This document shows positions 11,136 through 63,528 of a stretch of 64,000 bases of DNA, in pieces. A program made the translations under genes and the position numbers. This stretch comes from an uncultured Bacteroidia bacterium (GTDB lineage: Bacteria > Bacteroidota > Bacteroidia > Bacteroidales > CAJPTX01). The DNA is taken from positions 73,635 through 137,634 of the forward strand of contig CAUUMS010000004.1 of NCBI GenBank assembly GCA_963546395.1, in the 5' to 3' direction. Numbering within the stretch: the stretch's first letter is position 1; each line of letters opens with the position of its first letter. The notes below the pieces were generated by a model, which saw only the letters and a program-made list of their open reading frames with translations, had not been told where the DNA came from and made no database searches.

Positions 11136-11178
11136 ATATATCCTCCCTGTCAACCGGGGTCAGACGCCCCGGCAAAGA

Positions 11179-11370
11179 CTACTCTTCCTGCTCCTGGAGG
11201 TGCTGCACATAGCATGCGTGCAGGATCTCCTCGCGGCGGCGCACCGACGGCTTGATGAATGCCTGGCGGCGGCGGATCTCGCGCATCGTACCGGTGCGAT
11301 CGAATTTCCGCTTGAAACGCTTCAGCGCACGCTCTATGTTTTCGCCCTCTTTTACCGGTATAATTATCAT
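11179..11370 (-). CDS. rpsU: 30S ribosomal protein S21
   Basis: 63 aa from the internal ATG: MIIIPVKEGENIERALKRFKRKFDRTGTMREIRRRQAFIKPSVRRREE... Confidence 0.9.
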   Translation of the reverse strand: MIIIPVKEGENIERALKRFKRKFDRTGTMREIRRRQAFIKPSVRRREEILHACYVQHLQEQEE

Positions 11371-11406
11371 TGCTCTGCTATTAGTGTACGAACTGCATTT
11401 TCGCCG

Positions 11407-11438
11407 CGAAGTTAGCCACTGTGCACCGTATTTGCAAA
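11407..11438 (-). promoter_or_regulatory. Candidate rpsU promoter (TTTG-N20-TAACTTCG)
   Basis: On the minus strand the -33 TTTG is at 11438..11435, followed by a 20-nt spacer and a -7-like TAACTTCG at 11414..11407 (one mismatch to TAnnTTTG). It lies 36 nt upstream of the ATG. Confidence 0.35.
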
Positions 11439-11609
11439 TGCACGCACACCATCGAGCCACGCATTGTTTCCTGCGCATGATGACATCCGCCTCGATGCGG
11501 CACCGGGCATATTGCCCACCACAGCGATTTACCCCCGCGGGTGACCGGGCTCCGAAACTGGAGCGCGCTGCGCGGCCCCGCTATACCTAGGACAATGGGC
11601 AGCAACAAG

Positions 11610-11666
11610 GTATCAAGTCCGTATTTCACTGCCCAAATACGGACTTGATACGGCGATGGTACGACG
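11610..11666. repeat. Recurrent intergenic hairpin element, copy A
   Basis: Perfect 17-bp inverted repeat GTATCAAGTCCGTATTT / AAATACGGACTTGATAC with an 8-nt loop (cactgccc), followed by GGCGATGGTACGACG. Related copies are at 35688..35744 and 59361..59410. Confidence 0.65.
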
Positions 11667-11799
11667 TTATCACGGCATCTATGGTAGGAATGTGGGGCCT
11701 GCACAGGGTGCGGACTAGGCACAATTAACCCTGTTCCGCTACGACTCATCACCCAGCGGGGCGGCTGGATAGATCATCTCAACTAAGGTGTATAAACAA

Positions 11800-11833
11800 A
11801 GGCGGGGCGACCAGGATGCTGGTCGCCCCGCCT
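11800..11833 (-). terminator. Rho-independent terminator of the LRR-protein gene
   Basis: Perfect 15-bp GC-rich stem (aggcggggcgaccag/ctggtcgccccgcct) with a 4-nt loop. On the minus strand it is followed by TTTGTTTAT. It lies 25 nt downstream of the stop at 11858. Confidence 0.75.
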
Positions 11834-16522: not shown

Positions 16523-16562
16523 ACGACTAACCAATTAAAAAGTGAATACGGGATTAAACAAA

Positions 16563-16599: not shown

Positions 16600-19500
16600 T
16601 TACAGCTTCACAAAGCGAACTACGCGCGACAGGCGGCCTCGTTCGATTCGGAGCAGGTAGACACCCGCAGGTAGGGAGCGGACATCCAGCTGGGCATTAC
16701 CCTCGGCGGTGAATCGGGAGTAAACCTGCCCAACAGTCGAAATGATAGCTACCCGATCCCCTAGCTCTAGACCGTCCACATAGAGGTGATCCGCAACCGG
16801 GTTTGGACGAACTGTCAGGCTGAGCTGCGACTCCACTTCAGTATTCGGATCGTTCGGCTTGGGCTCAGGAGCCGGCGGATTGGGATCCTTCACGAAGGTT
16901 GCCACGAGCGAGAGATTGGCTGGCAGAGTCAGTTGGGCCCTCCGCATCGGGGTAGGCACCTTCTCACCGGTATCCTCACGCACAAGCCCCTTGAAAGTGT
17001 ATCCCTCTTTGGCCACGAACTGCATGTCAACCACGTCGCCCACGTCGAAGTGAGACTGGGGTGTCACGGCGCGTCCTTGGCAGGTCACGTTCATAGTGCC
17101 GCCCTCCTCGGGCTCTACGCGCCAGGTGAGCTTAGCCGGCTGGAAGTCCACTATGCTACGTGAAACGATAACCGCAGTGTGCTTCACGTCAGAAGTGGCC
17201 TCCTCGGCAGGACGCATCAGATCGGTGCTCCCATCCGAGAGCCAGTAGAGGAACTTGTAGCCCTCCATAGGCTCAACGGTGACGGGCTCGGTCATCTTTC
17301 CACCCTCTATCCACTGCTCGGTCACGTAGTCATCACCCTTCCGGAAACGGGCAGCTCCCACAATGGTGGACTCGTAGGTCACGTGCATAGAGGCGCTGCT
17401 CATGAAATGGGCCACCAGGTCGGCGCTCTTCTGCACTGGCGTAGCGGGCCGACGGGGCGTTGTGGCACCATCGCTCCAACGGGCGAACTTGAAGCCCTCG
17501 TAGGGCACAGCATCCACGGGCTGCCCCGATGTGCCATAGGGCAACTCCTCGGTGGCTATGGGCGAGCCATTCTGCAAGACGCGGCCAGCTGTGGGCGGAT
17601 CCGCCTTGTAGGTCAGGGTCACCTTAGGCTCACCCGTCACGAAAATGCTCACATTGTCCACCAGGGCCCAGTAGCTCCACTTGCTGGCGTAGCGAATGCG
17701 GAACTGAACGTAAGGCTTGCCAACAAGCTCACTCTTATCGAGCAGTCGGTTGAGATTCCAACGGTAGGTCATCGAGGTGATTTTGCCACCGAGGACTTTC
17801 CAACCGTCGCCGCAGTCGTACTCCAGGAAGAGGTTTGCACGCTCTTCCGTGTGGTCGCGGAACACGAGGTCGAATGCCACCGTAAGGCCACGCTTGGCAG
17901 CCGCCTCAGGCACCGTGAAACGCGGGGTGTACAGCGTCGATTCAAAGTCGGCCTTCGTCTCCCTATCGGAGTCAACCACCATGAAGTAGCCATCGAGGTG
18001 ATCGCCGAGGGTACGTGGGCTCTTGGAGATAAGCCATGGCTGCGCATAGCGACCGTTCATAGCAGTGGCCCACTCCTCGGGGAGTTTCGCCCCCTCGAAG
18101 TCGCACACGTACGGTATGGTGAGCATGCGACGGAAGAGGGCTGTGACATCCTTCGATGCCGTCACCTTCGTTTCCGTACGCTCACGCTCAGTAATCCCAT
18201 CGCTCCAAGCCACGAAGTAGAAGCCATCGGCAGGCTTCGCCACAACCTTCGAGCCATCGCCCTCAAACGCTACCTCCTGCTGAGCCTCGCCCTCAATGGA
18301 GCCATTGGCCCCGGCACTGTAGCGCAACGTGTAGTGCTTGCGAGCAAATTTGGCCGTGAACGACTTGTCTGCCTTCTCGGCCACGTCAGAGCGAGGATTG
18401 TCGGTTTTGCCATCATCCCACCCCTGGAAATCGAAGCCTACCTTGGCCTGAGCGAAGACAGGGAGCCCCGTCTGGCCTTCAGCTAGCAGCTGAGACTGCT
18501 TCCCGAAAAGGGTACCGCCATCGCCGTCCACCTTATAGGTGAGCGTCACCGTGGTAGCCACGAGATCAATCTCTACGCGCTCGTCGGCCTGCTTAATGTC
18601 CACAGAGCCCTTCTGGGTGCTGTACCCGGCTTTTGAAGCGGCGTAAGAGGATGTGGCATTCTCCTTCACAGGCATTGTAACCATGCCATCAGCACCCGTC
18701 ATATAGGCCCGGCCATTTACCATCACCTCGGCATTCTCCAACGGACTCGCATTGGCACGCACCAGGATAGTGAGCTGGTACATGTCGCCCTGGGTAACGG
18801 TGAACTCACCACCCACAGGTGTTACGGTGTAGTTACCCACCTGGTACGGAGCATGCTTTGCTGCTATCGTGTACATCCCCTTTGCCAGCGGGCCACGAGC
18901 CGGATCGACAACCTGGCCGTTCTGCTTAATCTCAAAATCGCCATGGCGATACGGATGGGGCATAAGGGCACGGTGGTTGGGCTCTACGAGACCCTCATAC
19001 TCAAACGTCCAGGGGATATTGTGCCCATAGGGTACCTCCTTAACGGTGGGCTTCACCTTCACTGGCTTAGGCTTAACCTCAATGCTCTTGGTCAGCGTAG
19101 CAGACGCAGCATAGCCCTTTGCCGCAGGCTGCACGGCCGTGATGGTCGCAGTACCAACGCCACCGATGTAGAGACGCTCGGCATTCACAGAGACCACATT
19201 CGGTGCTGTGGAGCTGCTCACGACAGGATTCTTCGCCTTGGAGGCAGATACAAACTCCAGGGCTACAGACTCGGCACCGTACTCGTAGCTCGCCGCAGGT
19301 TCTGTCCAAGTGAGGGACTGCGACTGCTCTAGGCGCAACGTGTAGGTGTGCTTAGAACGCTTGTTAGCCGCCGTCACCACAAGCAGACGGATGTCCGAGA
19401 GGTCTATCTCGCTGTTATCCTCAATGGCCTTGGGCCCACCCTGCGAGAGCACCGCAAGGGTGGCACCCGCAGACCTGGTAAACGTTACCTTAGCCTTCGT

Positions 19501-22500
19501 CGCATCAGCCAACGTGCCATGCGTGGCGGCATTGAGCGAGAAGAGAACGCCATCCGTGGTAATTGTGGCTGCGACATCCGCCTTGAGACCTGGGTTATCA
19601 TCCTTCTTCAGGGTAGCCCCCGTGAGCTCGCAGGCAGCCGAAGCCTCATTCATCGCCGTGAACTTGACCTCCTGCTCGAGCTTGACACCAAAGATCTCGA
19701 GCTCGGCCTTAATCACCACCGTCTTGTTGGCACTGAAGTCAAATTCGGTATCCTTTGTGACCTCTTTCCCCTCATAGAACAACTTCGTATGGGGCCAAGT
19801 GGTGAAGAACTCCGCATCCTTTATCTTGGAGAGGTCAGTCCCCTCGGGGAATACCACCTTGATAGAGCCGTCAGCCTGCTTGGAGTCATGCACCTGCAAT
19901 TTGAACATGCTACCTACAAGGAGCGACTGCCGCGGATCACGCCATACGCACTTGTCAGAGGCCGGAATACGTTCGGGACGCGTGAGTAGAAGACCCAGGT
20001 GCTCCTGATTCTTGAACTTGTGCGGCTGCGCAGCGGCACTGCCAGGGCCGTCATTGAATGGGAATTCATCGATCAGCCCTTCGGGCGGATTATTTTTCCA
20101 ATCCTTCCGCACGTGCTTGAACATGTTGGCGGAGATTTCCTGCGGCTTCAGCGCACGAGACCACATACGGAACTCGTCAATCATGCCGTGGAAACGCGTC
20201 ATCAGGTGTATAGCACCCTTCAGGGAGGGGGCATCCCGCCCTTCAGAGGCCGTAGCAACCTTCTGACCATCCAGGTACATGGTGATCTCGCAGTTGCTTG
20301 TGCCCTGGAATTGCCCTACCTCGATCTTCTCTACCACGACGGCCAGATGGTGCCAACGCCCTGGCTTCACAAGGTCGGCACTAGGATTCTGGGTGTACAC
20401 TACCGCACCATTACCGATCAGGGCTATCAGGCCATTATCCTTAACCTGCTTGGCAGCCATATTATAGGTGGTGGCAATGCGGAGTCCCTGCATGGAGATG
20501 AGCTCACCGTACTGACGCACTGTGGGATTAAACCAGAGCTCCATGGTGAAGGCACCTTTACTACCCCTTGGGATACTCTTCCACAGCTCAAGTGCAGAGG
20601 CCTCAATCTCCACCGCATCGTAAAGCGTCTTCTTCCCATCGGGAGATGCCTCCGGGGTAGAGCTGAGCACCCACTCGCCAGCAGATGTCGGATTGTCAAG
20701 GATCTTGAAGAGCGTGGTCGCCATCTCATTGTTATCAGGCTTGCCCAGGCCATCGAGCTCCTTGATCACCACCTTGATGGTATGAGGCCCCAACTCAGAG
20801 AGATCGGCTTTGCCACCCGTCAACATGATGTTCTTGTAGCCACTCCAAGCATTCAGCTGGTCATTCACCGTTACGGTTTCAGTCCACTCGTTCTTACCAT
20901 CCACGGTGCATGTAGCCTGGAATTTACCCGACCACTTGATGTGTGAAACATTGGTCACCGTGATCCACACAGACTCTTTATCCGTGAACGACTTGCTAAC
21001 CTTCGAGCCACCCTTGGCAGGATCCGATACGCCCACGTAGGTCAGGGAGAGATCGCCTGCCAACGGATTCTTACCCGGCTTGATCACCAGGATGTAATCG
21101 CGCATGTAGGCATTCTCCGTAAGCTCCTTAGCGCACACCGTGGCTACATCAGCTGACCTCGTGCTATAGAGCGCACGCAGACGATAATTGCCCGGCTCGT
21201 GGCCCGTGGCATCCACCGTGAAGGGGAGCTTGCCGGGAGTCTTAGTGATGTCGACTCTCGCATCAAGTATCTGCTCGCTCTCCGCATCGAAGGTGCCGTC
21301 ATTATTCCAGTCGACCCAAATCTTCGTGTGGGCAAACTTCTCGTGCTCTACATCGCTGAGCTCCACAGAGGACACGCCATCGCCCTGGAAGATCTGGATG
21401 GGCTTGTCCATGAAGTTGATAGTACGATCGACACCCGCCTTCCACTGCGGGATGCAATAGCGGTCGTACACCATCCACGTGAAGAACTTGTTGTCGGCCA
21501 TTGTGCCATCCTGCGCAATAAGATCGATTCGCAGCTTCTTCGCCGTACGCATGGGGACTCCCTTAATCTTCTGCAGAATGGTGAACGTGTCTACCCCAAG
21601 CGGAATATTCTGGAGGATCTGCTGTGCCGGGAGGCGGAACCCATCAGCTACGCGAATCAGGGCCCTGGGCACCAACTTCTTGGTGTTATTGCGGATAGAG
21701 ACCTTCACGGGCACATCAGCCGTGGGGGTATCGCCCGTGTGCTGAATCGTTGCGCCGAGCAGAGACAGAGGATTGCTCGCGGGCACAAGATCCACCTCGG
21801 CCACCCAACCCTCAGCACCTTCCTCTCGGTCATCCGACTGGAAGAAGAAGCGCAGCGAGCCATCCTCCGAGCCCGACACGTACGTCTGCCCATCGATAGT
21901 AGCCGTCAAATCATCGTCCAGCTGGTCGACAGGCAGCTCATCATCCGTCTTCTCCCAGGCATTCAGGTTGGTGTACACGTCGAGAATCCCGAGCTCCTTC
22001 TTCGTGTTGAACTTACGGAACACCGCACGAACCTTCATGGACGGATCCTCGGGCTCAAAGGTGATAGTCGACTTTTGATCCTTGCCATAGTCGCCCAGCA
22101 ACCCGCTATTGTCAGTGAAGATCCGCTTACGCTTCCCAATCGTGTAGCGAAGGTTAGGATCCTGCGCATTCTGCCGAGGATCGAGCTCACGTGGCAGGTA
22201 GAAGGAGGTCGGCATGGGGATTACGTCGCCGTAATTTCGCACTGTAGCCTCAGCGTGATTATCCTGCGGGTAGACATCGCCAGGGCATACCACATCGAAA
22301 GCCACGTGGCGCACAGCCCCCTCGGGCTTGCTCACGCTAAGGTCGAGCGGGAACATCATGCTTATCTCATCGTAGGGCAGCAGCTTCTCAATACGCTTGC
22401 TAGCCTTCCAAGCCCCATCGACGTAAGCATTCACCTCCAGGTTCTTCTCCTCACGGATGCTACCATTCACGAAAGTCAGCTTGAAATCGCTCACCCCAAG

Positions 22501-40958: not shown

Positions 40959-43115
40959 CTACTTCACCAGCGTCATCTCCTTTATCAGGTAGTCGGCCTG
41001 GGCATACTTGTCGATCATGAAGAGCACGTAGCGTATGTCGACGATGATGTTACGGCAACGCTGCGGATCGAACATCAGGTCGCTCATGGTGCCCTCCCAA
41101 ACCCTATCGAAGTTGAGGCCAATGAGCTCTCCTTTGGCATTGAGCGCAGGGCTACCCGAATTGCCCCCAGTGGTGTGGACGCTAGCCAGCAGGCAGGTGG
41201 GCACACTCCCGTTCACACCCCAACGACCATAATCCTTGGTTTCGTAGAGCTGCCGTAGGCGCTCGGGTACCACGTAATCGTGCGCTCCCGCGGCCACCTT
41301 CTCCATCACGCCATCGAGGGTGGTGAACGGCGTGTACTTCACGGCCTCACGGGCCTCGTAGCCCTGGACTGCCCCATAGGCCACACGGAGCGTAAAGTTC
41401 GCATCAGGATAGTACGTGGAGTCGGGGTTCATCTCCATGAGACCACGCACATAGTGCCGGTAGTGAGGCTCTAGGGCCCGCTGCAATTTGAGGTAGGGCT
41501 CACGCTGCAACTGGCGATACTCATCGGCCAAATGCGATACAGCCTGGTAGAGCTCATCGTCATCGATGGCGGTCGCCGTGCCGCTTTCCACTCCCGCACA
41601 GAATGCATCGAAGCGGGACTGTGATGTGAAGATGGACTGGGCCATCACCCGATCGACGAAGGCATCGATCGCTTGCGCATTGGGGAACAGGCGTGCCACG
41701 GTGGGCAACTGCTGCGCCTCGGGTACACGGGCGATATACGCACGGAGCATGCCCCGCATGAGATCCCTATCAACCCTCGGGGCATAGTCCTTGAAGAAGG
41801 CCTGTCCCGACTCTTTGAATTTGGCCACGTTATCCTTCGAGAGGCTCTTCTGCTCCTGGCTCTGGATGAAGGCCTTCTGACGAGTGGCAAAATTGAATGC
41901 TTCGATGCCCATGAGACCATTAGTGTAATAATCGATGGCCAGGGTCAACGGGGCCGTGCGCTTATACAGGCTCGCCATGCTGTCGAGCAGGGTGCCATAG
42001 AGAGCTTTGCGGGCTTTTGGGCCCTTCGCGACCCAGGCCCGGAATGCGTCCTCCTGCTGACGCTTACGCTCTACCGCATTCAGCCGCCGCAAACCAGATG
42101 CCTCGCCCTGCCACTTCTTCCACGCATTGGCAACTGAGGCGTGCTTGCTGGCGTACTGGATCCGGATCGTATCATTGGTCTCCATGTATCGCCCCATGGT
42201 GGCAAGACGCTCGCTGCGCAAGGCTACCTTACGGGGGTTCGAATGCGCCATGACCTCCTCCACGGCCTGCGATACGACGTAACGCTGCGTTGAGCCAGGA
42301 TAGCCAAAGACCATGACAAAGTCGTCCTCGGCGAGGCCGGCTGTGGAGATGCGGAAATAATTCTTCGCCCGCAATGGGACGTTACGCGGGGAGTACTGGG
42401 CTGGCTGGTTGGCTGAGTCGGCATAGACACGCAGCAGGGTGAAATCGCCCGTGTGGCGAGGCCACATCCAGTTGTCGGTGTCGCCGCCAAACTTCCCGAC
42501 CGCCGAGGGGGGTGCCACCACTAGTCGCACATCGCGATAGGTCTTGTAGGCGAAGAGGAAATACTGATTCCCGTAGAACAGGGGCTCGACTTCGTAGTTG
42601 AGGCTGCTATCCTTGGCCTTGAGATCGGCTATCAGCTTCTCGGTGTTGAGCTTCACATTTTTCGCCCGCACGGAATCAGCCACCTTGGTCGAAATGTCCT
42701 TGAGGACGGCCTTAGTGACATCTTCCATGTACTCGAGGAAGCTCACGGACAGACCCTTGCAGGGGAGCTCCTCGTCACGATTGGAGGCGCTATAGCCATG
42801 CGTCAGGTAATCGTGCGAGACGGAGGAGAGCGATTGGATGTTTGAATAGGCACAGTGGTGATTGGTCAAGAGCAGGCCCTCGGGGGAGACGATACCCCCG
42901 GTGCATCCCCCGCCAAAGATCACCACCGCATCTTTCAGGCAGGCCCGGTTGACACTATAGATATCCTCGGCAGACAGCTTGAAGCCCTTCTGCTGCATTG
43001 CCTTTATGTTGAGCTGCTTAACTAGCAACGGCAGCCACATTCCCTCATCGGCTCGCGCACCTGGCAGGAAAAACAGGGTAACCAGTGCAAGCACTATCAA
43101 AGACCTCGCCTTCAT
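40959..43115 (-). CDS. Dipeptidyl-peptidase, S46 family (DPP7/DPP11-like)
   Basis: Signal peptide followed by ADEGMWLP. Catalytic motifs TNHHCA (His) and TTGGNSGSPALNAKGELIGLNFD (Ser). 718 aa, typical S46 size. Confidence 0.9.
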   Translation of the reverse strand: MKARSLIVLALVTLFFLPGARADEGMWLPLLVKQLNIKAMQQKGFKLSAEDIYSVNRACLKDAVVIFGGGCTGGIVSPEGLLLTNHHCAYSNIQSLSSVSHDYLTHGYSASNRDEELPCKGLSVSFLEYMEDVTKAVLKDISTKVADSVRAKNVKLNTEKLIADLKAKDSSLNYEVEPLFYGNQYFLFAYKTYRDVRLVVAPPSAVGKFGGDTDNWMWPRHTGDFTLLRVYADSANQPAQYSPRNVPLRAKNYFRISTAGLAEDDFVMVFGYPGSTQRYVVSQAVEEVMAHSNPRKVALRSERLATMGRYMETNDTIRIQYASKHASVANAWKKWQGEASGLRRLNAVERKRQQEDAFRAWVAKGPKARKALYGTLLDSMASLYKRTAPLTLAIDYYTNGLMGIEAFNFATRQKAFIQSQEQKSLSKDNVAKFKESGQAFFKDYAPRVDRDLMRGMLRAYIARVPEAQQLPTVARLFPNAQAIDAFVDRVMAQSIFTSQSRFDAFCAGVESGTATAIDDDELYQAVSHLADEYRQLQREPYLKLQRALEPHYRHYVRGLMEMNPDSTYYPDANFTLRVAYGAVQGYEAREAVKYTPFTTLDGVMEKVAAGAHDYVVPERLRQLYETKDYGRWGVNGSVPTCLLASVHTTGGNSGSPALNAKGELIGLNFDRVWEGTMSDLMFDPQRCRNIIVDIRYVLFMIDKYAQADYLIKEMTLVK

Positions 43116-44585: not shown

Positions 44586-45728
44586 CTAGGATAGGGGGTG
44601 GTAGAGAGAGTCTCGCTCTACGGGTATGAAGCCCGCATCCCGCACTATTTGCTCGAGCTCCTCCACGGTGGCTGAGGGCTTTTGCTCCTCGGCACCAGCC
44701 ATGCTGTAGATCTTGGTGCTATTGCCGATGGTACCATCCAGATCATCGGCACCAAAGGCCAGGGCCAACGGGATATGCGCCTTGCCAAGCATGGGCCAAT
44801 AGGCCTTGAGATGCTGAATATTATCGAGCAAAATGCGGCTCACGGCGAACGTGCGTAGCACCTCGGCCATTGTCACCTCACCACGTAGGCCGAGCGCATT
44901 CCCAGCAGCCCTAAACTTCAACGGGATAAAGCAATTGAAACCACCGGTCTCGTCCTGTAGGGCACGCAGTCGCAGCAGATGGTCGACCCGATCGGCCAGG
45001 GACTCCACGTGACCGAAGAGCATGGTGGCATTCGAGCATAGCCCCAGCTTATGCGCAGCACGATGGACGGATAGCCAGTCGTCTGCCGAGCCCTTTTCGG
45101 GGCATATCCGTTGCCGCACATCCTCGGCAAAGATCTCGGCCCCACCGCCAGGTAGGGAGCCCAAGCCAGCCTGTTGCAATCGGCCCAAGCCTGCGAATAT
45201 CGAAACCCCAGCCTGCGTAAAGAATGGGAGTAATTCAATAGCAGAAAAGGCCTTGACATGCAAGCGAGGCGCTACCTCACGCACGCTCTTCACCACATGC
45301 TCAAGGTCGGACAGAGTCCAGTCGGGGTGCACACCGCCCGTGATATGAATCTCTGTGCAGCCTTCGTCTTGGAGTGCCTTCGCCCGCTGCAAGATTTCAT
45401 CTAGCGTGAGAGTCCACACCCCATCCTGCCCATGCTCCTTACGGAAGGAGCAGAAAGCACAGCGGAATATGCAACGATTCGTGGGCTCTACGTGCCCATT
45501 CCGATTGTAGTAGGCCTGCAATCCATTCTTACGGATGCGAACCCAGCTGGCCATAGTGGCGAGGAGTGCCAGATTGGGCTCAGCAAATAGGGCCCTACCA
45601 TCGTCCTCATTCAGTCGCTCCCCCGCTAGCAAGTGCTCTGCAGCTTGCACAGTCTGACTCCCGCAGTGCGAGAGTGCGTTGCGCACCAGCTGGGCCTTAC
45701 GCTCTAGGAGCTCGCCAATGTTGCCCAC
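44586..45728 (-). CDS. Radical-SAM enzyme of the CofH/MqnC/MqnE family (futalosine-route menaquinone biosynthesis candidate)
   Basis: EPTNRCIFRCAFCSF (CxxxCxxC), ...GCTEIHITGGVHPDW..., ...GLGSLPGGGAEIF..., ~380 aa. I cannot tell MqnC from MqnE by eye. The start codon is GTG, the only start available. Confidence 0.7.
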   Translation of the reverse strand: MGNIGELLERKAQLVRNALSHCGSQTVQAAEHLLAGERLNEDDGRALFAEPNLALLATMASWVRIRKNGLQAYYNRNGHVEPTNRCIFRCAFCSFRKEHGQDGVWTLTLDEILQRAKALQDEGCTEIHITGGVHPDWTLSDLEHVVKSVREVAPRLHVKAFSAIELLPFFTQAGVSIFAGLGRLQQAGLGSLPGGGAEIFAEDVRQRICPEKGSADDWLSVHRAAHKLGLCSNATMLFGHVESLADRVDHLLRLRALQDETGGFNCFIPLKFRAAGNALGLRGEVTMAEVLRTFAVSRILLDNIQHLKAYWPMLGKAHIPLALAFGADDLDGTIGNSTKIYSMAGAEEQKPSATVEELEQIVRDAGFIPVERDSLYHPLS

Positions 45729-45781: not shown

Positions 45782-47917
45782 TTAGAAGCTTTCGTAATCC
45801 GCATCGCTATCCGTGCCCGTAGACATATCCAGCTGTACACCGCCGCTCTTCGTGGGCCGTGCCACAGGCTCTGGCTCCACTACTGGGGATGGGACGACTG
45901 GCTGCGCAGCAGGTGCCTCCACCCTCGGAGGTGCTACCGTTGACACAGGAGCCTCGGGCTCCCTCCGAGTCACATGGGTCTGTGCAGTGGCTACTCCAGG
46001 CCGGGGCCCTGACTTCTCAGCGGGGATAGGTGCTACCCTCTCAGTGCTATGGATTGGCCGACTGGGGGCTGACACCATAGGCAAACCACTAGGTGCACTC
46101 GGCTTCACCGGCGTGATAGGACGTACATTCGTAGTAGGCCTTGAGACATGCAATGAGGATGCACCCTGGAGGACGGGAGCCTCTGTCTGATCAATCTTAA
46201 ACAGATTGGCCAGCTTGCCAATCTCTGCTGCCAGAATATCGAGCTGATTGGCACTGTCTGCCAGCGTGGCACTCGAGGCTGCATTGGCCTGCGACACGCT
46301 GCTAAGCTGCTGCACGGCCCTATTGACCTGCTCTGCGCCATTACGCTGCTCGAGGCTAGCCACGGCGACCTCACGCGAGAGGCTGGCACTATTGCGCACA
46401 TTCGGGGCAATCTCGTCGAGGGCTGCATTCACGCTATCCGCAGTGCGCACCGCAGACCCTACTAGCGATATGACCTCATCGGCTGCACCGCCACTTCGCT
46501 CGGCCAGCTTACGTACCTCAGAGGCAACCACAGCAAATCCACGTCCGTGCTCTCCAGCCCGGGCGGCCTCCACTGCCGCATTGAGGGCCAGAATATTAGT
46601 CTGATTAGCAATGTCGCTTACCACGCCTATCTTAGATGCGATCTCCTGCACGGCCTCCCGATTCTGGCGCACATGCTCTAGCAAGCCCTCAAGGATATTC
46701 GACACGCTCTGCGACATCTTCTCCGACTGCTGCGCATTGTCCGCATTCTGATCGATGTTGGCGGCCATTTGCTCCATGGCACTCGACACCTGCTCTGTTG
46801 ACGAGGCCTGCGATGAGGCTCCCTCGGCGATCTGGCGACTCGCCTCGCCCATCTTCTTGCTCACAGACTGAAGCTCGCCTGAAGTCTTATGCAGGGCCGT
46901 TACAAGCTCCACCATCTTACCCCGCAATGCCTCGGAGGCCCGTACTATCTTACCCGCCTCATCCGCACGCTCCTTGTCTACCTGTATCAGGTGATTTGTC
47001 TCTCGCAAATTACCGTCGCGCATTGCAGCCATTGAGGCCTCAGTACGGCTAAATACCCCAACCAGAGCACCCGACGCACGGTAGGTGAGCACTCCAAGGA
47101 AGAGGAATACCAGTATTGCGCTCACGAGTAGAGCTCGACTACGTGACTTGCCATACGCCGTCATCTCCTTCTCTATCACCTTGTAATAGCTCCGCAGGGA
47201 TGCACAGAAAGCCGCTGAGGACTCATCGTACGTCTGCTGTAAGCCCTCCTGCACACGCTCCTTTGACACCAAGTCTTCCATCCGGCCCAGCACGTCACGC
47301 AACGCACCGCCCTCCTCTACCAGCTCACCAGCAGCCTTTGCCAGCATATCCTTAGAAGCCTCGAGCCTCGGCACCTCATCCGACTCGACGTGCTTGGCAA
47401 AAGCCAGTGCAGACTCCAGCAACAGGCGCATAAGATCGCGGGATATCCCCTCCGAGACAGAGGCCTTCGAGGCCAAAGCTTGCAGATCGTTACGCACGCT
47501 CGTCTGCACCGCATAAAGCTCCTTCTCGCTCTCAAGCAGGGAGTGGGCCGCCTGCCGTAATTCAGCCCTCAGGTTCGCCACCCGTTGCGCAGCCTCGAAG
47601 ATGGAGCGTTCGGCATGTTGCACCGGTGCAAGCATATCCTGCTCTCGGCCGCTCTCGTCCACATTGCCGATGCGGCTATCCACCCTGGCAATGAGCGATT
47701 CGTCATGCGTGCGGAAGAAGCTCTCTACGTCGGCGTAGGCGTGATGCACCATATCGCTGGATTGGCTCACCTCCGAGTATATGGGGAGGAAGGTGGCCAC
47801 CTGTAGATGGCTGTACACGCCCACCGACATTATAACCAGAAATGCCACAAAGGCCAGTACATTGAGCAGCAGCAGCTTCACCCGAATGCTCGTCGTTGCC
47901 ATGCGATGCAAATCCAT
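45782..47917 (-). CDS. Methyl-accepting chemotaxis protein with long Pro-rich C-terminal tether ending DYESF
   Basis: TM - ~250-aa helical sensor - TM - HAMP-like - signalling domain with tip [41 protein letters not shown], followed by a 136-aa low-complexity tail. Confidence 0.88.
45785..46192 (-). other. Low-complexity Pro/Ser/Val-rich tether plus C-terminal pentapeptide DYESF (codons 45785..45799)
   Basis: [46 protein letters not shown]...[46 protein letters not shown]. The codons were verified base by base against the sequence. Confidence 0.8.
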
Positions 47918-59578: not shown

Positions 59579-59586
59579 TACATTTG
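59579..59586 (+). promoter_or_regulatory. Candidate -7 box (TACATTTG) for the C25 peptidase gene
   Basis: 21 nt upstream of the ATG at 59608. It overlaps the TTG used as the start by the ORF track, which supports the ATG at 59608. Confidence 0.45.
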
Positions 59587-59607
59587 TACTATTCAAGTCA
59601 TGATACG

Positions 59608-62600
59608 ATGCGGAGATTCTGCTCAAGGAATCTGGGGACACTAGGGACGCTTCTGCTCCTACTGCTGTGGCACGCTGCCTCCGCGCAAAAACCATTGCCA
59701 CGCATTCTCCACGATGGGGGCGACTCGCTCGTGCTAGAGCTGGAGTTCCCCCGACCCCACTTCGAGCCGCTCGACGATCCTGAGCGCTGGGTGCTGCCCA
59801 CCCTTCCGGGGGCTGTGAGCCGCAACGAGGAGGGGAGCCCGCAGCTGCCTATGCTAGCTCTTCCCTACGCCGTGCGGCGTGCCTCGGGCCTTCGCGTGTA
59901 CACCCTCGACAGTCAGGACACACTTTACACCGACATCCGCATCGCCCCATCGCGAGGGCGCATCACCCGGGATGAGGATCCGAGCCTTCGCCCGCGCCGT
60001 GAGGGGCCCATCTATCAGCAGGATGCCTACTACCCGCGTGAAATCGTGCAGGTGGGCAGCGTGTATCAGCTGCACGAGCAGCTGGGGCAAAGCCTGGTGC
60101 TCAACCCCTTGCAGTATAACCCGCAAAGGCGCACGCTACGTGCCGTGCGCAGGATGCGCATTGCGCTCACCGGCCTGAAGAGCGATCGCGCCATAGAGGC
60201 CGTCATCAACTCCTCATCCCACAGCAACGCCATAGAAGAGCAGTTCTCCCCCCGCAGCGTGCGTCGCACCCGGGGTGACAAGCGAGAGGGACTGCTCATT
60301 GTCTCCCCACCCCGCTACAAGGAGGCCCTAAGCCCCCTCATCAAGTGGAAACGTCTCAGCGGCTTACGGGTGGAGTGGCAGCCGTTTGGCGACCCGAATG
60401 ATCCCCGGAGCATCAATGACACCGCCGAGCTGAAGGCCCTCATTCGGGATCGATACACCTCGCCCGAGGGGCTGCACTACGTGCTTCTGGTGGGTTCGCG
60501 CGCAGAAGTACCCCCTCTCCGCCGCATGGGTGCTAGGCGTACGTCGGACAGCGACCAGGCCTACGGGCAAATACAGGGCAACGACAGCTACAACGAGGTG
60601 TATGTGGGTCGATTTTCGGCCCGCACCGTGGAGCACGTACAGCTACAGGTGAGCAAGACAATTCGCTACGAGCGCAATCTGAACCGCGCCGACCGCTGGC
60701 TGGGGAGCGCGCTAGGCATCGCCTCAAACTCCACATTCAAGGGAGATCGGGGAGAGACCGATCGCGAGCACATGCGCCTCATCGCAAAGATGTTGGGGAA
60801 AGAGGCCTACATCAACTCCGACTCGCTCTTCGAGGGCCAAAAGGGGGCCACCTCGCTGAACCTGGCGCAGAAGCTGAATGCGGGAATAGGGTACATCAAC
60901 TACGTGGGGCACGGCTTCGCCAGACGCTGGGCCACCACTGGGTTTTCAGTGGATGACATCGGCATCTTGACGCACCTTCGGGCCACGCCCTTCATCGTGG
61001 ATGTGGCCTGCTCCAACGGCGATATGCAAGAGGCCGATCCCTGCTTCGCCGAGGCCTGGCTGTGGGCTAAGCAGGGTAAGACCCCCACGGGGGCCGTAGC
61101 TATCTGTGCCGCCAGCGATCTACAGGCGTGGGATCAGCCCATGCGGGCCCAGGACGCATTCGTCGAGTATGTGGCAGGCCAGCACGGCAGCAAAGTCATC
61201 CGCTACGGGGCCGTAATGGCTCGCGCTGTGGCCGAGATGCTCAACGCCTACCCCACTGGCACAGAAGCCCGTGAGACGGCCAACACATGGAACATCTTCG
61301 GCGATCCGTCGGTGATGCTGCGCACGCACATTCCTAGTCCGCTAACCGTGACGTACGATGCCCTACTACATGATGGCCAGCAGGATTACGCGCTATCGGT
61401 GGACGTTGCAGGAGCCCTAGCTGTGGCCTGCATCACGTCAGCAGAAGGGAAGGAACGATTCCATTACACCACAGCCTCAGGGGGGAAGGCCGTCTTCAAC
61501 AACTTAGCCCTTCGGAAAGGCGAGCGAGTGGAGTTCGCCGTCACAGCCTTCAATCACGAGAGTTTTCTGTCCCCCGTCATCACAGTGGGCAAGGGCACGG
61601 AGGCCCGGGCGGAGCTGATGGATGCCCAGCTGCATCACGATGGCGGAGAGCCCGCGGTGAGCGTGAGCCCTGGTGAGACGATCAAGCTGCGCGCGGCTGT
61701 GTGCTACAAGGCGGGGCCCCTGCCCGCTAGCAATGTGCGCATACGTTACACCGTAGAGCCGGAACAAGCTGCTAAAATCTTGACCGATCAGGAGGAGATA
61801 CTCCCCGAGTTCACCGAGCATGGGTGCACGGGGCTCGCCACGCGCTGCAAGCTTCAGCTGGGAGGCGATCTGAACAACGGCGACCAGGTGAGCCTGCATG
61901 CTGAGATTCTCGTGAATGGGGACGTAAGCTCAAAGCTCACGCTGTCGACCATCGTGGGTGCCCCTGCCATCCGCATAGACAGCGCACGGATCGTGTCTGA
62001 TGCTGACAAGGATCATCGCATCGCCGCGGGAGAGGCTTTCACCCTGGGCGTATGGGTGAGCAACGTCGGATCCGCATCGGTGAAAGACGCACGCCTCGTT
62101 GCGCATTTCGCCGCCGGGGGGCAATCCTCAGACAAGCAGACCCCCATTGGCACGCTAGCCCCTAACGCGCAGACGATGGCCTCTATAGAGCTCGTCATGC
62201 CCGCTTCGGGGGTGGATAGCACCTCTATTTGCCAGGTGAGGGTGACCCCGCATTGGAGGAATTCAGAGGGGCCCACCACACGCAGCATCGTACCCATGGG
62301 GCGGAACTACCTTAAGCATCCCCCCGAGGAGGTAGGCTACCCCTTCGCGCAGGCCGGTCTACAGCAAATCACTCGCATCCTGCTACCCAATGAGCTGCTG
62401 GGCAGCAACAACCGACGCGTCAAGGGTGTGGAGATCCCCGTGCGGTTCGAGGGCGGCAACGAGGGGCAAATGCTACGTGCACGTGCCTTTCTACAAACGG
62501 CAGAGGACACCTCGTGGAAGGAGGTTGGCGATTTCGACGCCCTATTCCGCCAGTCGCCCAACATTGAGCTCCCCGTGAAAAGGGGGCTGGTGACTATCCC

Positions 62601-63528
62601 GTTTGACTTTTTCGACATCGCAGACCTACAACCCGTTTGCCTCACCATCGTCGCAGAAGGTGACGCGGCGATGCGTCCGTACGCCGTGGAGGCTTTGCGC
62701 GCAAATGCGCCCCGCACGGTGAGCTACACCAAGCAGGCCGACGGGACGGTGGCGATGGCCTACCACATGCACACGCCACGCATGCGACTGATCGATGCGG
62801 GCCTATGCCGCTACCACTTCCACGTGCTGGCGCCAAATGGTAAACCCACGCGTAACTTCAGGCTCCAGATCGGCGAATGGATATGGAATGGCTCAGGGGG
62901 GCGAAGGATGGAGGTGTTCGTGGGTGAGGGGCACCATGAGCTCAAATTCACCTCGAGCATGTACCGTGATGTCACCGTTAAGCGCACCCTTGTGGGAGGT
63001 TCCGTATACGATACCATACAGCTACAGGCAGCCGATACGGTGCGGCTAATGCTACTCGTGCAAGATCAGGATGGCCGCCCCATTGAGCAAGCTATCGTAC
63101 GCATTGGGAACCAGGAGCGACGCACGAACTCCATAGGCAAACTGATACTCGCCATTGTGCCGGGCTCCTACACACTGACGGCCTCGGCCCCAGGATTCGA
63201 GGTGCTCACTAGTCCCTTCGCGGTGAACAAGACCAATGCGCCGGCCGTGATAACCCTTCGGGACGAGTCCTCAACGGCTGTCGAGGAGCGGAGTACGCTG
63301 GCCGTGTGGCCCAATCCGAGCCGGGAACGTATCACAGTGAAGAGTCCGTTCCACACGGGGCACCTCACGATTTACAGCACCACGGGGCAAGTTGTCAAAC
63401 GGCAGTCGGTGGATGGACTAGAGACGGGGGTCGACGTGTCGGTGCTGGGAGACGGGATCTACCTCGTGGAGGTAACAGGCCCTGAGGGTAACACGCTACG
63501 GAGCCACTTCGTGAAAAGCACCCGTTAA
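59608..63528 (+). CDS. Gingipain-family (C25) cysteine peptidase with long C-terminal extension and T9SS CTD
   Basis: Signal peptide MRRFCSRNLGTLGTLLLLLLWHAASAQ, then an N-terminal propeptide-like region. C25 core ~60283..61325 (LLIVSPPRY..., YVLLVGSRAEVPP, DQAYG). Catalytic His in INYVGHGF (codon 60910..60912) and Cys in VDVACSNGD (codon 61009..61011). CARDB-like modules and a CarboxypepD_reg-like module (VRLMLLVQDQDGRPIEQAIVRIGNQ...) follow, then the CTD. Confidence 0.85.
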   Translation: MRRFCSRNLGTLGTLLLLLLWHAASAQKPLPRILHDGGDSLVLELEFPRPHFEPLDDPERWVLPTLPGAVSRNEEGSPQLPMLALPYAVRRASGLRVYTLDSQDTLYTDIRIAPSRGRITRDEDPSLRPRREGPIYQQDAYYPREIVQVGSVYQLHEQLGQSLVLNPLQYNPQRRTLRAVRRMRIALTGLKSDRAIEAVINSSSHSNAIEEQFSPRSVRRTRGDKREGLLIVSPPRYKEALSPLIKWKRLSGLRVEWQPFGDPNDPRSINDTAELKALIRDRYTSPEGLHYVLLVGSRAEVPPLRRMGARRTSDSDQAYGQIQGNDSYNEVYVGRFSARTVEHVQLQVSKTIRYERNLNRADRWLGSALGIASNSTFKGDRGETDREHMRLIAKMLGKEAYINSDSLFEGQKGATSLNLAQKLNAGIGYINYVGHGFARRWATTGFSVDDIGILTHLRATPFIVDVACSNGDMQEADPCFAEAWLWAKQGKTPTGAVAICAASDLQAWDQPMRAQDAFVEYVAGQHGSKVIRYGAVMARAVAEMLNAYPTGTEARETANTWNIFGDPSVMLRTHIPSPLTVTYDALLHDGQQDYALSVDVAGALAVACITSAEGKERFHYTTASGGKAVFNNLALRKGERVEFAVTAFNHESFLSPVITVGKGTEARAELMDAQLHHDGGEPAVSVSPGETIKLRAAVCYKAGPLPASNVRIRYTVEPEQAAKILTDQEEILPEFTEHGCTGLATRCKLQLGGDLNNGDQVSLHAEILVNGDVSSKLTLSTIVGAPAIRIDSARIVSDADKDHRIAAGEAFTLGVWVSNVGSASVKDARLVAHFAAGGQSSDKQTPIGTLAPNAQTMASIELVMPASGVDSTSICQVRVTPHWRNSEGPTTRSIVPMGRNYLKHPPEEVGYPFAQAGLQQITRILLPNELLGSNNRRVKGVEIPVRFEGGNEGQMLRARAFLQTAEDTSWKEVGDFDALFRQSPNIELPVKRGLVTIPFDFFDIADLQPVCLTIVAEGDAAMRPYAVEALRANAPRTVSYTKQADGTVAMAYHMHTPRMRLIDAGLCRYHFHVLAPNGKPTRNFRLQIGEWIWNGSGGRRMEVFVGEGHHELKFTSSMYRDVTVKRTLVGGSVYDTIQLQAADTVRLMLLVQDQDGRPIEQAIVRIGNQERRTNSIGKLILAIVPGSYTLTASAPGFEVLTSPFAVNKTNAPAVITLRDESSTAVEERSTLAVWPNPSRERITVKSPFHTGHLTIYSTTGQVVKRQSVDGLETGVDVSVLGDGIYLVEVTGPEGNTLRSHFVKSTR
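63292..63525 (+). other. T9SS type-A CTD of the C25 peptidase
   Basis: STLAVWPNPSRERITVKSPFHTGHLTIYSTTGQVVKRQSVDGLETGVDVSVLGDGIYLVEVTGPEGNTLRSHFVKSTR. Confidence 0.78.

What the first reader, a model, noticed from the sequence alone, without database searches (positions are those of the whole stretch)
45785..46192. Chemoreceptor with a 136-aa proline-rich tether ending in an NWETF-like pentapeptide (DYESF)
Seen in sequence: the 711-aa MCP (45782..47917, minus strand) has a normal TM-sensor-TM-HAMP-signalling core. After the last signalling helix (...LANLFKI) it continues for 136 residues of low-complexity Pro/Ser/Val/Ala-rich sequence and terminates ...[12 protein letters not shown].

Established knowledge: the high-abundance receptors Tar and Tsr of E. 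coli/Salmonella end in NWETF/NWESF. This aromatic-x-x-aromatic pentapeptide sits on a flexible linker of roughly 30 residues and docks CheR and CheB.

DYESF has the same (N/D)-aromatic-E-(S/T)-F pattern at the extreme C-terminus, but the tether here is several-fold longer.

Inference: this receptor looks built for adaptation-enzyme tethering, which implies a functional Che-type pathway. The rest of the window (T9SS cargo, TAnnTTTG promoters, Bacteroidales-type ribosomal synteny) points to a lineage usually regarded as non-flagellated and poor in chemotaxis genes. What output such a pathway would control (gliding/T9SS, pili, gene expression) is open.
Basis: partly seen in the sequence, partly recalled or inferred. 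Interest (0 to 1): 0.72.

Follow-up and report, generated by a model that had tools for sequence, protein, structure and literature searches.

The report
Chemoreceptor with extra-long enzyme-docking tail
This is a real chemoreceptor from an uncultured Bacteroidales bacterium whose long floppy tail ends in a conserved docking motif of an already-described kind, so it is an ordinary receptor type with an unusually long tether and not a new system.

Summary
ORF 45782..47917 (-) encodes a 711-aa MCP, and its last 136 residues (45785..46192) are a Pro/Ser/Ala/Val-rich tail that AlphaFold2 predicts to be disordered and that ends in DYESF.

The ending is not fortuitous. All 39 family sequences (the window's MCP and 38 full-length homologues, 29-40% identical) end in DYE(S/N)F.

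The receptor is 34H-class, and the literature already states that 34H receptors carry x[F/Y]xx[F/Y] tethers. Pentapeptide MCPs are reported as highly abundant in Bacteroidetes, and 67 of 82 other Bacteroidales-type MCPs retrieved here have one. By RpoB the nearest named relatives are Tenuifilaceae (about 75% identity), whose genomes carry complete che operons.

Three things stand out:
- The family's tether is 136-259 aa, against a median of 59 aa in other Bacteroidales MCPs and 38 aa in E. coli Tar.
- The conserved unit is a roughly 19-residue bipartite module (G-Φ-x-Φ-x-M/L, eight residues, D-x-D/E-F/Y-E-x-F), not a bare pentapeptide.
- This module type co-occurs with a distinct CheR β-subdomain signature in 13 of 13 fetched operons.

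CheR, CheB, CheA and CheW could not be located for this lineage with the available tools. The tethering function is therefore a strong inference and is not shown. Verdict: a new member of a known kind, of modest interest.

The parts
45782..47917 (-). Complete 711-aa methyl-accepting chemotaxis protein gene (34H class), including the stop codon at 45782-45784
   Evidence: ORF and translation. Pfam MCPsignal E 4.5e-32. Foldseek top hits are E. coli Tsr/Tar signalling structures.
45785..45799 (-). C-terminal pentapeptide DYESF (residues 707-711), the putative CheR/CheB docking site
   Evidence: D707, Y708, E709 and F711 are invariant in the 23-sequence alignment. All 39 family sequences end in DYE(S/N)F. 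It matches the 34H-class rule x[F/Y]xx[F/Y] (PMC2577667).
45821..45844 (-). Upstream half of the conserved tail module, GGVQLDMS (residues 692-699)
   Evidence: G693, D697 and M698 are invariant and V694 nearly so. The motif G-Φ-x-Φ-x-(M/L) lies 18-20 residues from the C-terminus in 39/39 family sequences. It is present in 51/66 other Bacteroidales-type tails, at 19 residues in 33 of them. It also occurs in 34H MCPs of other phyla.
45845..46192 (-). Hypervariable Pro/Ser/Ala/Val-rich disordered linker (residues 576-691)
   Evidence: pLDDT 29-44 with no secondary structure in this stretch. No column conservation across the family. Family tail lengths are 136-259 aa with median 158. No tandem repeats in the DNA.
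46193..46930 (-). Cytoplasmic signalling hairpin (residues 330-575), 34H class, with a near-invariant CheA/CheW-binding tip (about residues 436-475)
   Evidence: One 7-residue gap per arm relative to E. coli Tar, which is 36H. The 36H receptors in fetched loci are 14 residues longer than the family HMM. The invariant block I436-S475 is listed.
46769..46795 (-). Two candidate methylation/deamidation sites, E375-Q376 and E382-Q383 ([11 protein letters not shown])
   Evidence: They align with Tar sites E302 and Q309. The family columns are EE in 34/39 sequences and EQ or QE in the rest.
46931..47062 (-). HAMP-like linker (residues 286-329), below the Pfam threshold
   Evidence: Aligns with the Tar HAMP region. 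G302, D319 and E320 are invariant. There is no Pfam HAMP hit.
47138..47812 (-). All-helical periplasmic sensor (about residues 36-260) flanked by TM1 (20-36) and TM2 (262-279)
   Evidence: Hydrophobic runs. Helical model with pLDDT mostly above 80 in this region. Weak Foldseek similarity to the helical-bimodular McpS ligand-binding domain, 2YFA/2YFB.
44586..45728 (-). Radical-SAM CofH_C/MqnC-like gene immediately downstream on the same strand; it accompanies the MCP in every context examined
   Evidence: Pfam. The same adjacency is seen in L001, L002, L093, L094 and L095. No terminator-like site lies between the two genes.
26317..28119 (-). Second MCP of the same organism (600 aa, HAMP plus MCPsignal, 34H), ending at the hairpin (...AIAVFKM) with no tail; a candidate receptor that relies on a tether-bearing neighbour
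   Evidence: Pfam, translation, alignment with Tar.

Best explanation
The gene encodes a transmembrane 34H-class chemoreceptor. Its C-terminal 136 residues form a flexible tether, and the conserved final module of about 19 residues (GGVQLDMS, eight residues, then D-x-DYESF) probably recruits the adaptation enzymes: CheR methyltransferase and possibly CheB methylesterase. Holding these enzymes near the receptor's Glu/Gln methylation sites would let them also act on neighbouring tail-less receptors in the same array, such as the second MCP in the window.

The mechanism would match the NWETF tether of E. coli Tar/Tsr, in the variant typical of 34H (F8-type) receptors, but with a linker about four times longer. 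The longer linker should enlarge the neighbourhood one tethered enzyme can service.

Shown: gene structure, receptor class, disorder of the tail, conservation of the module and of the candidate methylation sites, and co-occurrence of this module type with cheR/cheB in related and unrelated operons.

Inferred: actual binding to CheR/CheB, existence of those enzymes in this genome, the functional meaning of the extra length, and the pathway output.
For: 1. The MCP signalling domain is present and is 34H-class by alignment with Tar and by HMM length.
2. Published rule: pentapeptide MCPs are either 36H with xWxxF or 34H with x[F/Y]xx[F/Y] (PMC2577667). 34H receptors are assigned to F8 systems (PMC7184735, PMC11253619). 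My own sample reproduces the rule: among the 36H MCPs all but one aromatic ending have W at position -4, whereas none of 66 Bacteroidales-type 34H tails has W there.
3. The terminal module is invariant across 39 family sequences whose linkers are unalignable and 136-259 aa long.
4. The tail is predicted to be disordered.
5. Glx pairs at the positions of Tar sites 2 and 3 are conserved, with occasional Gln. That pattern is typical of CheR/CheB substrates.
6. The same module terminates MCPs encoded directly beside cheR and cheB in Bacteroidota operons L006, L022, L026 and L029.
7. CheR β-subdomain residues co-vary with tail type. Thirteen of 13 operons with bipartite-tail 34H MCPs have R/K187-S188-D/E190 with R/K at 197. 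Simple-tail 34H operons and 36H operons have Gly-rich loops instead.
8. The receptor tip that binds CheA/CheW is invariant, and the lineage keeps several MCPs: 2 in this window and at least 4 in a relative.
9. The nearest named family has a complete che operon.
Against: No CheR, CheB, CheA, CheW or CheY gene was found in the 64-kb window or within 10 kb of the homologous MCPs in five other contigs.

Four further searches failed to recover a CheR from this lineage: a CheR profile search, an exhaustive representative search with follow-up of candidates, and a lineage-specific DNA-pattern scan of metagenomes.

In L001, the GAF/PAS-polIII-DUF8439 block that follows cheB in Tenuifilaceae is present, but no che operon lies upstream of it. 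The che operon is therefore at least relocated in that relative and could be lost.

The Bacteroidota CheRs lack the three glycines (G188, G190, G194) that contact NWETF in Salmonella CheR. Any binding must therefore differ in detail, and no structure of this CheR subtype with a peptide exists. No binding experiment is available.
Confidence: 0.7

Rival explanations
1. The lineage has lost its Che core, or at least CheR/CheB. The receptor then signals through another route or is a relic, and the conserved C-terminal module binds some other partner, for example a localisation, scaffolding or partner-switching protein.
For: No che gene was found in any of the six family loci. In L001 the block that normally follows cheB is present without a che operon upstream. 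Accessory proteins of Bacteroidales che operons also end in acidic residues plus Phe, so such termini may dock to something other than CheR.
Against: The CheA/CheW-binding tip and the Glx methylation pairs are as conserved as in working receptors. The lineage maintains several MCPs with different sensors. The tail module is the same one found next to cheR/cheB in many phyla, and it co-varies with the CheR pocket.
Confidence: 0.12
2. The module docks only CheB (or CheD) and not CheR. Alternatively the two halves dock different enzymes: the upstream G-Φ-x-Φ-x-M for one and DYESF for the other.
For: In E. coli the pentapeptide binds both CheR and phosphorylated CheB (PMC8609364, abstract listed). 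P. aeruginosa has pentapeptide-dependent and pentapeptide-independent CheBs (PMC7698151). The module is bipartite with fixed spacing. The Bacteroidales operons also encode CheD.
Against: The co-variation observed here is with the CheR β-subdomain. CheB co-variation was not examined.
Confidence: 0.13
3. The C-terminus is a proteolytic degradation or turnover signal, and the long Pro-rich region is merely a spacer with no role in adaptation.
For: Conserved extreme C-termini can serve as protease tags; this rests on general knowledge and was not tested here. The last 20 residues carry a net charge of -5.
Against: The motif obeys the receptor-class rule for CheR tethers and tracks CheR pocket type across phyla. 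A degron would not be expected to do either.
Confidence: 0.05

Closest known systems
34H-class (F8-type) chemoreceptors with x[F/Y]xx[F/Y] tethers, e.g. the Geobacter EFEKF receptors with 'group B' CheR (PMC2577667) and P. syringae PSPTO_0912 (PMC11253619)
   Same: The same heptad class and the same class-specific aromatic pattern at the extreme C-terminus after an unstructured linker. The same bipartite module appears in Desulfobulbaceae, Desulfuromonadaceae, Nitrospirota, Magnetococcus and Acidobacteriaceae 34H MCPs that sit beside cheR/cheB.
   Different: The linker is 136-259 aa, against about 50-85 aa in those receptors. The gene is not in a che operon but is paired with an mqnC-like gene. 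The cognate CheR is unidentified.
E. coli/Salmonella Tar and Tsr NWETF tether (36H, F7 system; CheR complex in PDB 1BC5)
   Same: A flexible C-terminal linker ending in an acidic aromatic-x-x-aromatic pentapeptide. It coexists with tail-less receptors (Tap and Trg in E. coli; the 600-aa MCP here).
   Different: Tyr replaces Trp at position 2. The receptor is one heptad per arm shorter. The linker is about 4 times longer: 136 aa here against 38 aa measured the same way for Tar, or about 35 aa in the literature (PMC7390727). There is an extra conserved motif 19 residues from the end. CheRs that accompany this tail type lack the Salmonella glycines G188, G190 and G194.
Other Bacteroidales/Bacteroidota MCPs with C-terminal pentapeptides (Ortega and Krell 2020, PMC7390727), including those in the che operons of Alkalitalea saponilacus (L022) and other Bacteroidota (L006, L026, L029)
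   Same: The same terminal module (KG-Φ-x-L-x-M/L ... D-x-D/E-F/Y-E-x-F) and the same 34H signalling domain, 40-50% identical.
   Different: Their tails have a median of 59 aa. This family forms a separate clade with a distinct helical sensor, found mostly in Logan and ENA assemblies; samples identified as human or dolphin oral were recognised from my own knowledge of the record names and were not verified.
P. aeruginosa McpB/Aer2 GWEEF tether, specific for CheR2
   Same: A pentapeptide confers specificity for one CheR paralogue through β-subdomain differences (as cited in PMC7184735 and PMC11253619).
   Different: That is a different receptor class and motif (xWxxF). It is a soluble PAS receptor with a short linker.

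Membership tests
Methyl-accepting chemotaxis protein (Pfam PF00015) | MCP signalling domain with the conserved hairpin tip | tested here: met
   PF00015 E 4.5e-32, above the gathering score. The tip I436-S475 is invariant in the family. Foldseek matches Tsr/Tar structures.
34H heptad class of MCPs | Symmetric loss of one heptad in each arm relative to 36H receptors | tested here: met
   One 7-residue gap in each arm against E. coli Tar. The 36H MCPs in fetched loci are +14 residues relative to the family HMM.
Pentapeptide-tether chemoreceptors (Perez and Stock / Ortega and Krell definition) | x[FWY]xx[FWY] at the extreme C-terminus, after a linker that follows the signalling domain | tested here: met
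   DYESF is followed directly by the stop codon. A 131-residue linker precedes it.
Pentapeptide-tether chemoreceptors | Class-specific motif: 34H receptors carry x[F/Y]xx[F/Y], not xWxxF (PMC2577667) | tested here: met
   Y at position 2 and F at position 5. None of 66 related 34H tails has W at position -4, whereas all but one of the 36H aromatic endings have W there.
Pentapeptide-tether chemoreceptors | Linker is unstructured | tested here: met
   AlphaFold2 pLDDT below 50 for residues 579-711, with DSSP marking only a 4-residue helix at 705-708. The linker sequence is hypervariable among homologues. This is a prediction only.
Pentapeptide-tether chemoreceptors | Receptor carries CheR/CheB substrate sites (Glx-Glx pairs in the methylation helices) | tested here: met
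   E375-Q376 and E382-Q383 align with Tar E302 and Q309. The family columns are EE, EQ or QE in 39/39 sequences.
Pentapeptide-tether chemoreceptors | A cognate CheR with a pentapeptide-binding β-subdomain is encoded in the same genome | not testable with these tools
   Only 64 kb of the genome is available, and it holds no che genes. Searches for the lineage's CheR failed. In related Bacteroidota operons CheR has a full-length β-subdomain with R/K187 and R/K197 but S188 and D190 instead of Gly.
Pentapeptide-tether chemoreceptors | Physical binding of CheR and/or CheB to the terminal peptide | not testable with these tools
   This needs ITC or pull-down experiments, or at least a multimer structure prediction. 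Only single-chain prediction of window or database proteins was possible.
F8-type chemosensory system | CheA and CheW (typically with STAS and CheY upstream) encoded with 34H receptors | not testable with these tools
   Such operons were found in Tenuifilaceae (L091/L092) and in L006, L022, L086 and L090. None was found in any contig of the window's own clade.

The most novel reading that the evidence does not exclude
In this clade of uncultured, apparently non-flagellated Bacteroidales, one receptor per genome has evolved a 136-259-residue tether. That would make it a dedicated adaptation hub, holding CheR/CheB for an array of otherwise tail-less receptors. It would dock through a 19-residue bipartite module, not a pentapeptide, bound by a distinct S188/D190-type CheR pocket. 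The pathway's output would be something other than a flagellar motor, such as gliding/T9SS or STAS-based partner switching. The extended bipartite docking module of 34H receptors would itself be an undescribed general feature of F8-type systems.
Probability: 0.25. Interest if true: 0.6.

Novelty: new member of a known kind. Interest (0 to 1): 0.3.

Why it matters
If the inference holds, this receptor family is a natural experiment on tether length in chemoreceptor arrays. The linker is about four times the length of the E. coli one and its great length is maintained across a whole clade, which should change how many neighbouring receptors one docked enzyme can reach.

It also points to a concrete, testable refinement of the 'pentapeptide' concept for 34H/F8 receptors: a 19-residue, two-part docking module paired with a distinct CheR pocket.

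Finally, it flags an uncultured Bacteroidales clade that keeps a multi-receptor chemosensory system whose output is unknown.

None of this overturns current understanding. The receptor type, its motif rule and its abundance in Bacteroidetes are already published.

Tried and rejected
It was swamped by generic MCPs and returned no members of this family. It was still useful as a source of about 80 che/MCP loci.
2. Context look-ups of short host-associated MCP hits, P0049 and P0040, showed no che operon.
3. A CheR profile search of the 5.8-billion-protein set listed only low-GC environmental Bacteroidales among its top 120.
4. An exhaustive representative search with a CheR profile gave candidates that I chose by GC-like amino-acid composition and source. 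P0398/L086 and P0311/L090 are real 34H che operons from other organisms: a lipid-A acyltransferase is only 24% identical to the window's, and the tetranucleotide correlation is 0.59-0.73 against 0.98 for the same species.
5. A lineage-specific 107-nt IUPAC pattern of the hairpin tip was specific on 86 loci. In metagenome contigs it found only already-known copies.
6. I tested whether some family members keep the order che operon, GAF/PAS, polIII, DUF8439, MCP. This was not seen in P0020, P0010 or P0042.
7. Look-ups of the exact window protein and of P0134 were not on record.
8. Literature searches for chemotaxis in this clade or in Tenuifilaceae returned nothing specific.
9. I considered the tail being a repeat expansion or a frame artefact and rejected both. 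There are no tandem repeats, and the terminal module is conserved in frame in all homologues.
Full report
**Observation.** The minus-strand ORF 45782..47917 encodes a 711-aa protein ending ...[12 protein letters not shown]. Pfam detects the MCP signalling domain at residues 393-560 with E 4.5e-32, and NCBIfam models for Tar, Tsr and Aer2-type transducers align to residues ~225-585. The finding's interval 45785..46192 is exactly residues 576-711, the 136 residues after ...LANLFKI. This tail is 18% Pro, and 79% of it is P/S/T/A/V/E/K/Q/G. Its DNA has no tandem repeats. AlphaFold2, run with a 23-sequence family alignment, gives pLDDT 29-44 for residues 579-711, with DSSP marking only a 4-residue helix at 705-708; the sensor and signalling hairpin are mostly confident. 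One detail of the description needs softening: Pfam finds no HAMP or named sensor domain. The TM2-proximal segment nevertheless aligns with the Tar HAMP region and keeps G302/D303 and D319/E320.

**Is the ending fortuitous?** It is not. A search of 5.8 billion proteins found a 99%-identical copy (P0001) and 38 full-length homologues of 591-832 aa that are 29-40% identical to the window's protein. All 39 sequences (window plus 38) end in DYESF (30) or DYENF (9). The linker between the hairpin and this ending cannot be aligned across the family and is 136-259 aa long, with a median of 158; the window's copy is the shortest. The last ~20 residues, by contrast, are conserved: G693, D697, M698, D705, D707, Y708, E709 and F711 are invariant. 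By composition, the chance of an x[FWY]xx[FWY] terminus is about 0.6%, and only this protein among 31 window proteins has one.

**What kind of receptor is it?** Aligned with E. coli Tar (fetched), both MCPs in the window lack exactly seven residues in each arm of the hairpin. They are therefore 34H-class, whereas Tar is 36H. In about 80 MCP-containing loci fetched from species-representative genomes, the 36H receptors are 14 residues longer than the family HMM and all but one of their aromatic endings have W at position -4 (xWxxF). The 34H receptors end in x[F/Y]xx[F/Y]. This reproduces a published rule: pentapeptide receptors are restricted to 36H (xWxxF) and 34H (x[F/Y]xx[F/Y], with Geobacter consensus EFEKF) (PMC2577667). 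34H receptors are assigned to F8-type chemosensory systems (PMC7184735; PMC11253619). DYESF on a 34H receptor is exactly what that rule predicts.

**Methylation sites.** The window sequence [11 protein letters not shown] places E375-Q376 and E382-Q383 opposite Tar sites E302 and Q309. Across the family these two columns are EE in 34 of 39 sequences and EQ or QE in the remainder. That is the pattern expected for CheR/CheB substrate sites, where Gln needs deamidation. The CheA/CheW-binding tip (I436-S475) is invariant.

**The conserved unit is larger than a pentapeptide.** In all 39 family sequences a motif G-Φ-x-Φ-x-(M/L) (GGVQLDMS in the window, 45821..45844) lies 18-20 residues from the C-terminus. 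Of 66 other Bacteroidales-type MCP tails, 51 have it, 33 of them at exactly 19 residues. The same two-part tail occurs on 34H receptors of Desulfobulbaceae, Desulfuromonadaceae, Nitrospirota, Magnetococcus and Acidobacteriaceae, and in modified form in Alphaproteobacteria. It is therefore a trait of one 34H subtype and not of this lineage. I found no description of the upstream element in the searchable literature, but that library is incomplete.

**Link to CheR/CheB.** Using E. coli Che proteins as queries, I found complete che operons in four Bacteroidota loci: L006, L022 (Alkalitalea saponilacus), L026 and L029. In each, an MCP encoded beside cheR and cheB ends in the same module, for example GIDLKM...DDEYENF and GVDLKMS...DDDFQRF. 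The residues of Salmonella CheR that contact NWETF are Q182, R187, G188, G190, G194 and R197 (PMC2577667). Bacteroidota CheRs have a β-subdomain of the same length and keep R/K187 and R197, but carry S188, D190 and K/N194. Across all fetched operons the pocket co-varies with tail type:
- 13 of 13 operons with bipartite-tail 34H receptors have (R/K)-S-(K/R)-(D/E)...R/K.
- 34H receptors with simple ExEFxRF tails pair with K-G-x-G...G...L.
- Among the 36H operons, L049 and L052 pair with the E. coli-type R/K-G-x-G...G...R/K loop, while L048 (xWxxF) and L059 depart from it.

The sample is small and not phylogenetically independent, but it is what a docking interaction predicts. The closest solved structure to this CheR subtype is Salmonella CheR (1AF7, and 1BC5 with NWETF); no complex with a 34H-type peptide exists.

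Of 82 other MCP hits retrieved with this protein (the named ones are Bacteroidales, such as Williamwhitmania, Salinivirgaceae and Perlabentimonas), 67 have an aromatic pentapeptide terminus, with a median tail of 59 aa. [quoted passage not shown]

By RpoB, the organism (58.8% GC) belongs to an unnamed clade with relatives at 78-84% identity. A Tenuifilaceae MAG carries the operon RR, 603-aa protein, STAS, cheY, cheA, cheW, 422-aa protein, cheR, HATPase_c, cheD, cheB. All 120 listed best CheR hits are CheR_N+CheR proteins, and the named ones are Bacteroidales, Bacteroidota, Tenuifilaceae or Natronoflexus. Synteny ties the clades together: the GAF/PAS-polIII-DUF8439 block that follows cheB in Tenuifilaceae sits directly upstream of the family MCP in L001, with 50% and 64% identity for the first two proteins.

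**What is distinctive.** The tether is about 2.5 times longer than in other Bacteroidales receptors and about 4 times longer than in Tar (136 aa against 38 aa measured the same way), and the whole family keeps a tail of at least 136 aa. Within the lineage the tail-bearing receptor coexists with tail-less 34H receptors:
- the 600-aa MCP at 26317..28119 ends ...AIAVFKM;
- in a relative, two contigs from one sample that probably belong to one genome (tetranucleotide r = 0.87) carry four MCPs, of which only the family member has the tail.

This mirrors the E. coli arrangement, where tethered enzymes also serve tail-less receptors. My inference, which is untested, is that the longer linker enlarges the neighbourhood one docked enzyme can reach.

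**What could not be shown.** No CheA, CheW, CheR, CheB or CheY gene lies in the window or within 10 kb of the family MCP in five further contigs. In each of those the only constant neighbour is a downstream mqnC-like radical-SAM gene. Attempts to recover the lineage's CheR failed for technical reasons: listing caps, clustering of representatives and 10-kb flanks. This is not evidence of absence. In L001 the che operon is not in its Tenuifilaceae position, so relocation or loss cannot be excluded.

**Pathway output.** This is unknown. The related Bacteroidales operons contain STAS and an RsbW-like HATPase_c protein plus CheD. No flagellar gene appears among the called genes within 10 kb of cheR in L091/L092; the other operon loci were screened only for Che proteins. 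In P. syringae the F8 system modulates motility, biofilm and virulence rather than being the main chemotaxis pathway (PMC11253619).

**Verdict.** This is a genuine receptor with conserved features, and it fits an already-described kind: a 34H receptor with an x[F/Y]xx[F/Y] adaptation-enzyme tether, common in Bacteroidetes. Its exceptionally long tether, and the bipartite nature of the docking module, are modest points that can be tested.

Noticed in passing
window 44586..45728 (-); also L001 12289-13416, L002 12190-13332, L093 12245-13411, L094 12191-13351, L095 12606-13829: The long-tail MCP gene is always followed on the same strand, 15-113 bp downstream, by a radical-SAM CofH_C/MqnC-like gene. 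No terminator-like site lies between them in the window. They are probably co-transcribed; any link to menaquinone or redox sensing is speculation.
   Followed up: partly
window 26317..28119 (-) and 16600..25821 (-); L085 403-4271 and 8302-12148: A second, tail-less 34H MCP lies next to a 3073-aa S8-peptidase T9SS cargo protein. A relative has two tandem tail-less MCPs about 4 kb from a 3088-aa S8/T9SS protein.
   Followed up: partly
L091 3208-5019 and 10892-11791; L006 4074-5897 and 11990-12919; L026 6997-7851: Bacteroidales che operons encode STAS, an RsbW-like HATPase_c protein and CheD. Several accessory proteins there end in acidic residues plus Phe (...DDDDNLELF, ...DSEEETF, ...EDGNIEFF, ...GDNEETF, ...NEEGEVF). 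This hints that C-terminal Phe docking may extend beyond receptors.
   Followed up: no
L001 5845-9875 versus L091/L092 14937-19115: The GAF/PAS (about 760 aa), DNA pol III subunit and DUF8439 block directly follows cheB in Tenuifilaceae and in L006. In the 64%-GC relative it lies directly upstream of the family MCP, with cytochrome c biogenesis genes where the che operon would be.
   Followed up: partly
L010, L021, L039, L046 (Devosia, Methylobacterium, Bradyrhizobium): Alphaproteobacterial 34H MCPs have the bipartite tail, but with 1-5 extra residues after the motif (...GGFDLDL...DGDFTRRSAA), so the motif is not at the extreme C-terminus. Their CheR pockets also differ.
   Followed up: no
L012, L013, L023, L030, L034, L083: A second 34H subtype has simple ExEFxRF-like tails with no upstream motif. 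It pairs with CheRs that have a Gly-rich loop but Leu (Met in L023) at Salmonella position 197.
   Followed up: partly
window about 10185..11810: By coordinate mapping, the 403-kb same-species contig (ERZ27279287 k119_10241) begins at about window position 11810. That is just past a tyrosine integrase (10185..11153) and next to a BspA-like LRR T9SS protein (11858..16534). It may be a strain-variable or mobile junction.
   Followed up: no
window 47138..47812 (-), residues about 36-260: The periplasmic sensor is an all-helical domain of about 220 aa with no Pfam match. It shows weak Foldseek similarity to the helical-bimodular ligand-binding domain of McpS (2YFA/2YFB) and to the TorS sensor. It is poorly conserved across the family.
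   Followed up: partly
window 59584..63528 (+), 40959..43115 (-), 11858..16534 (-): The window encodes a gingipain-like C25 peptidase with a T9SS sorting domain, an S46 dipeptidyl peptidase and a BspA-type LRR T9SS protein. This points to a proteolytic lifestyle, although the nearest named relatives are the environmental Tenuifilaceae.
   Followed up: no
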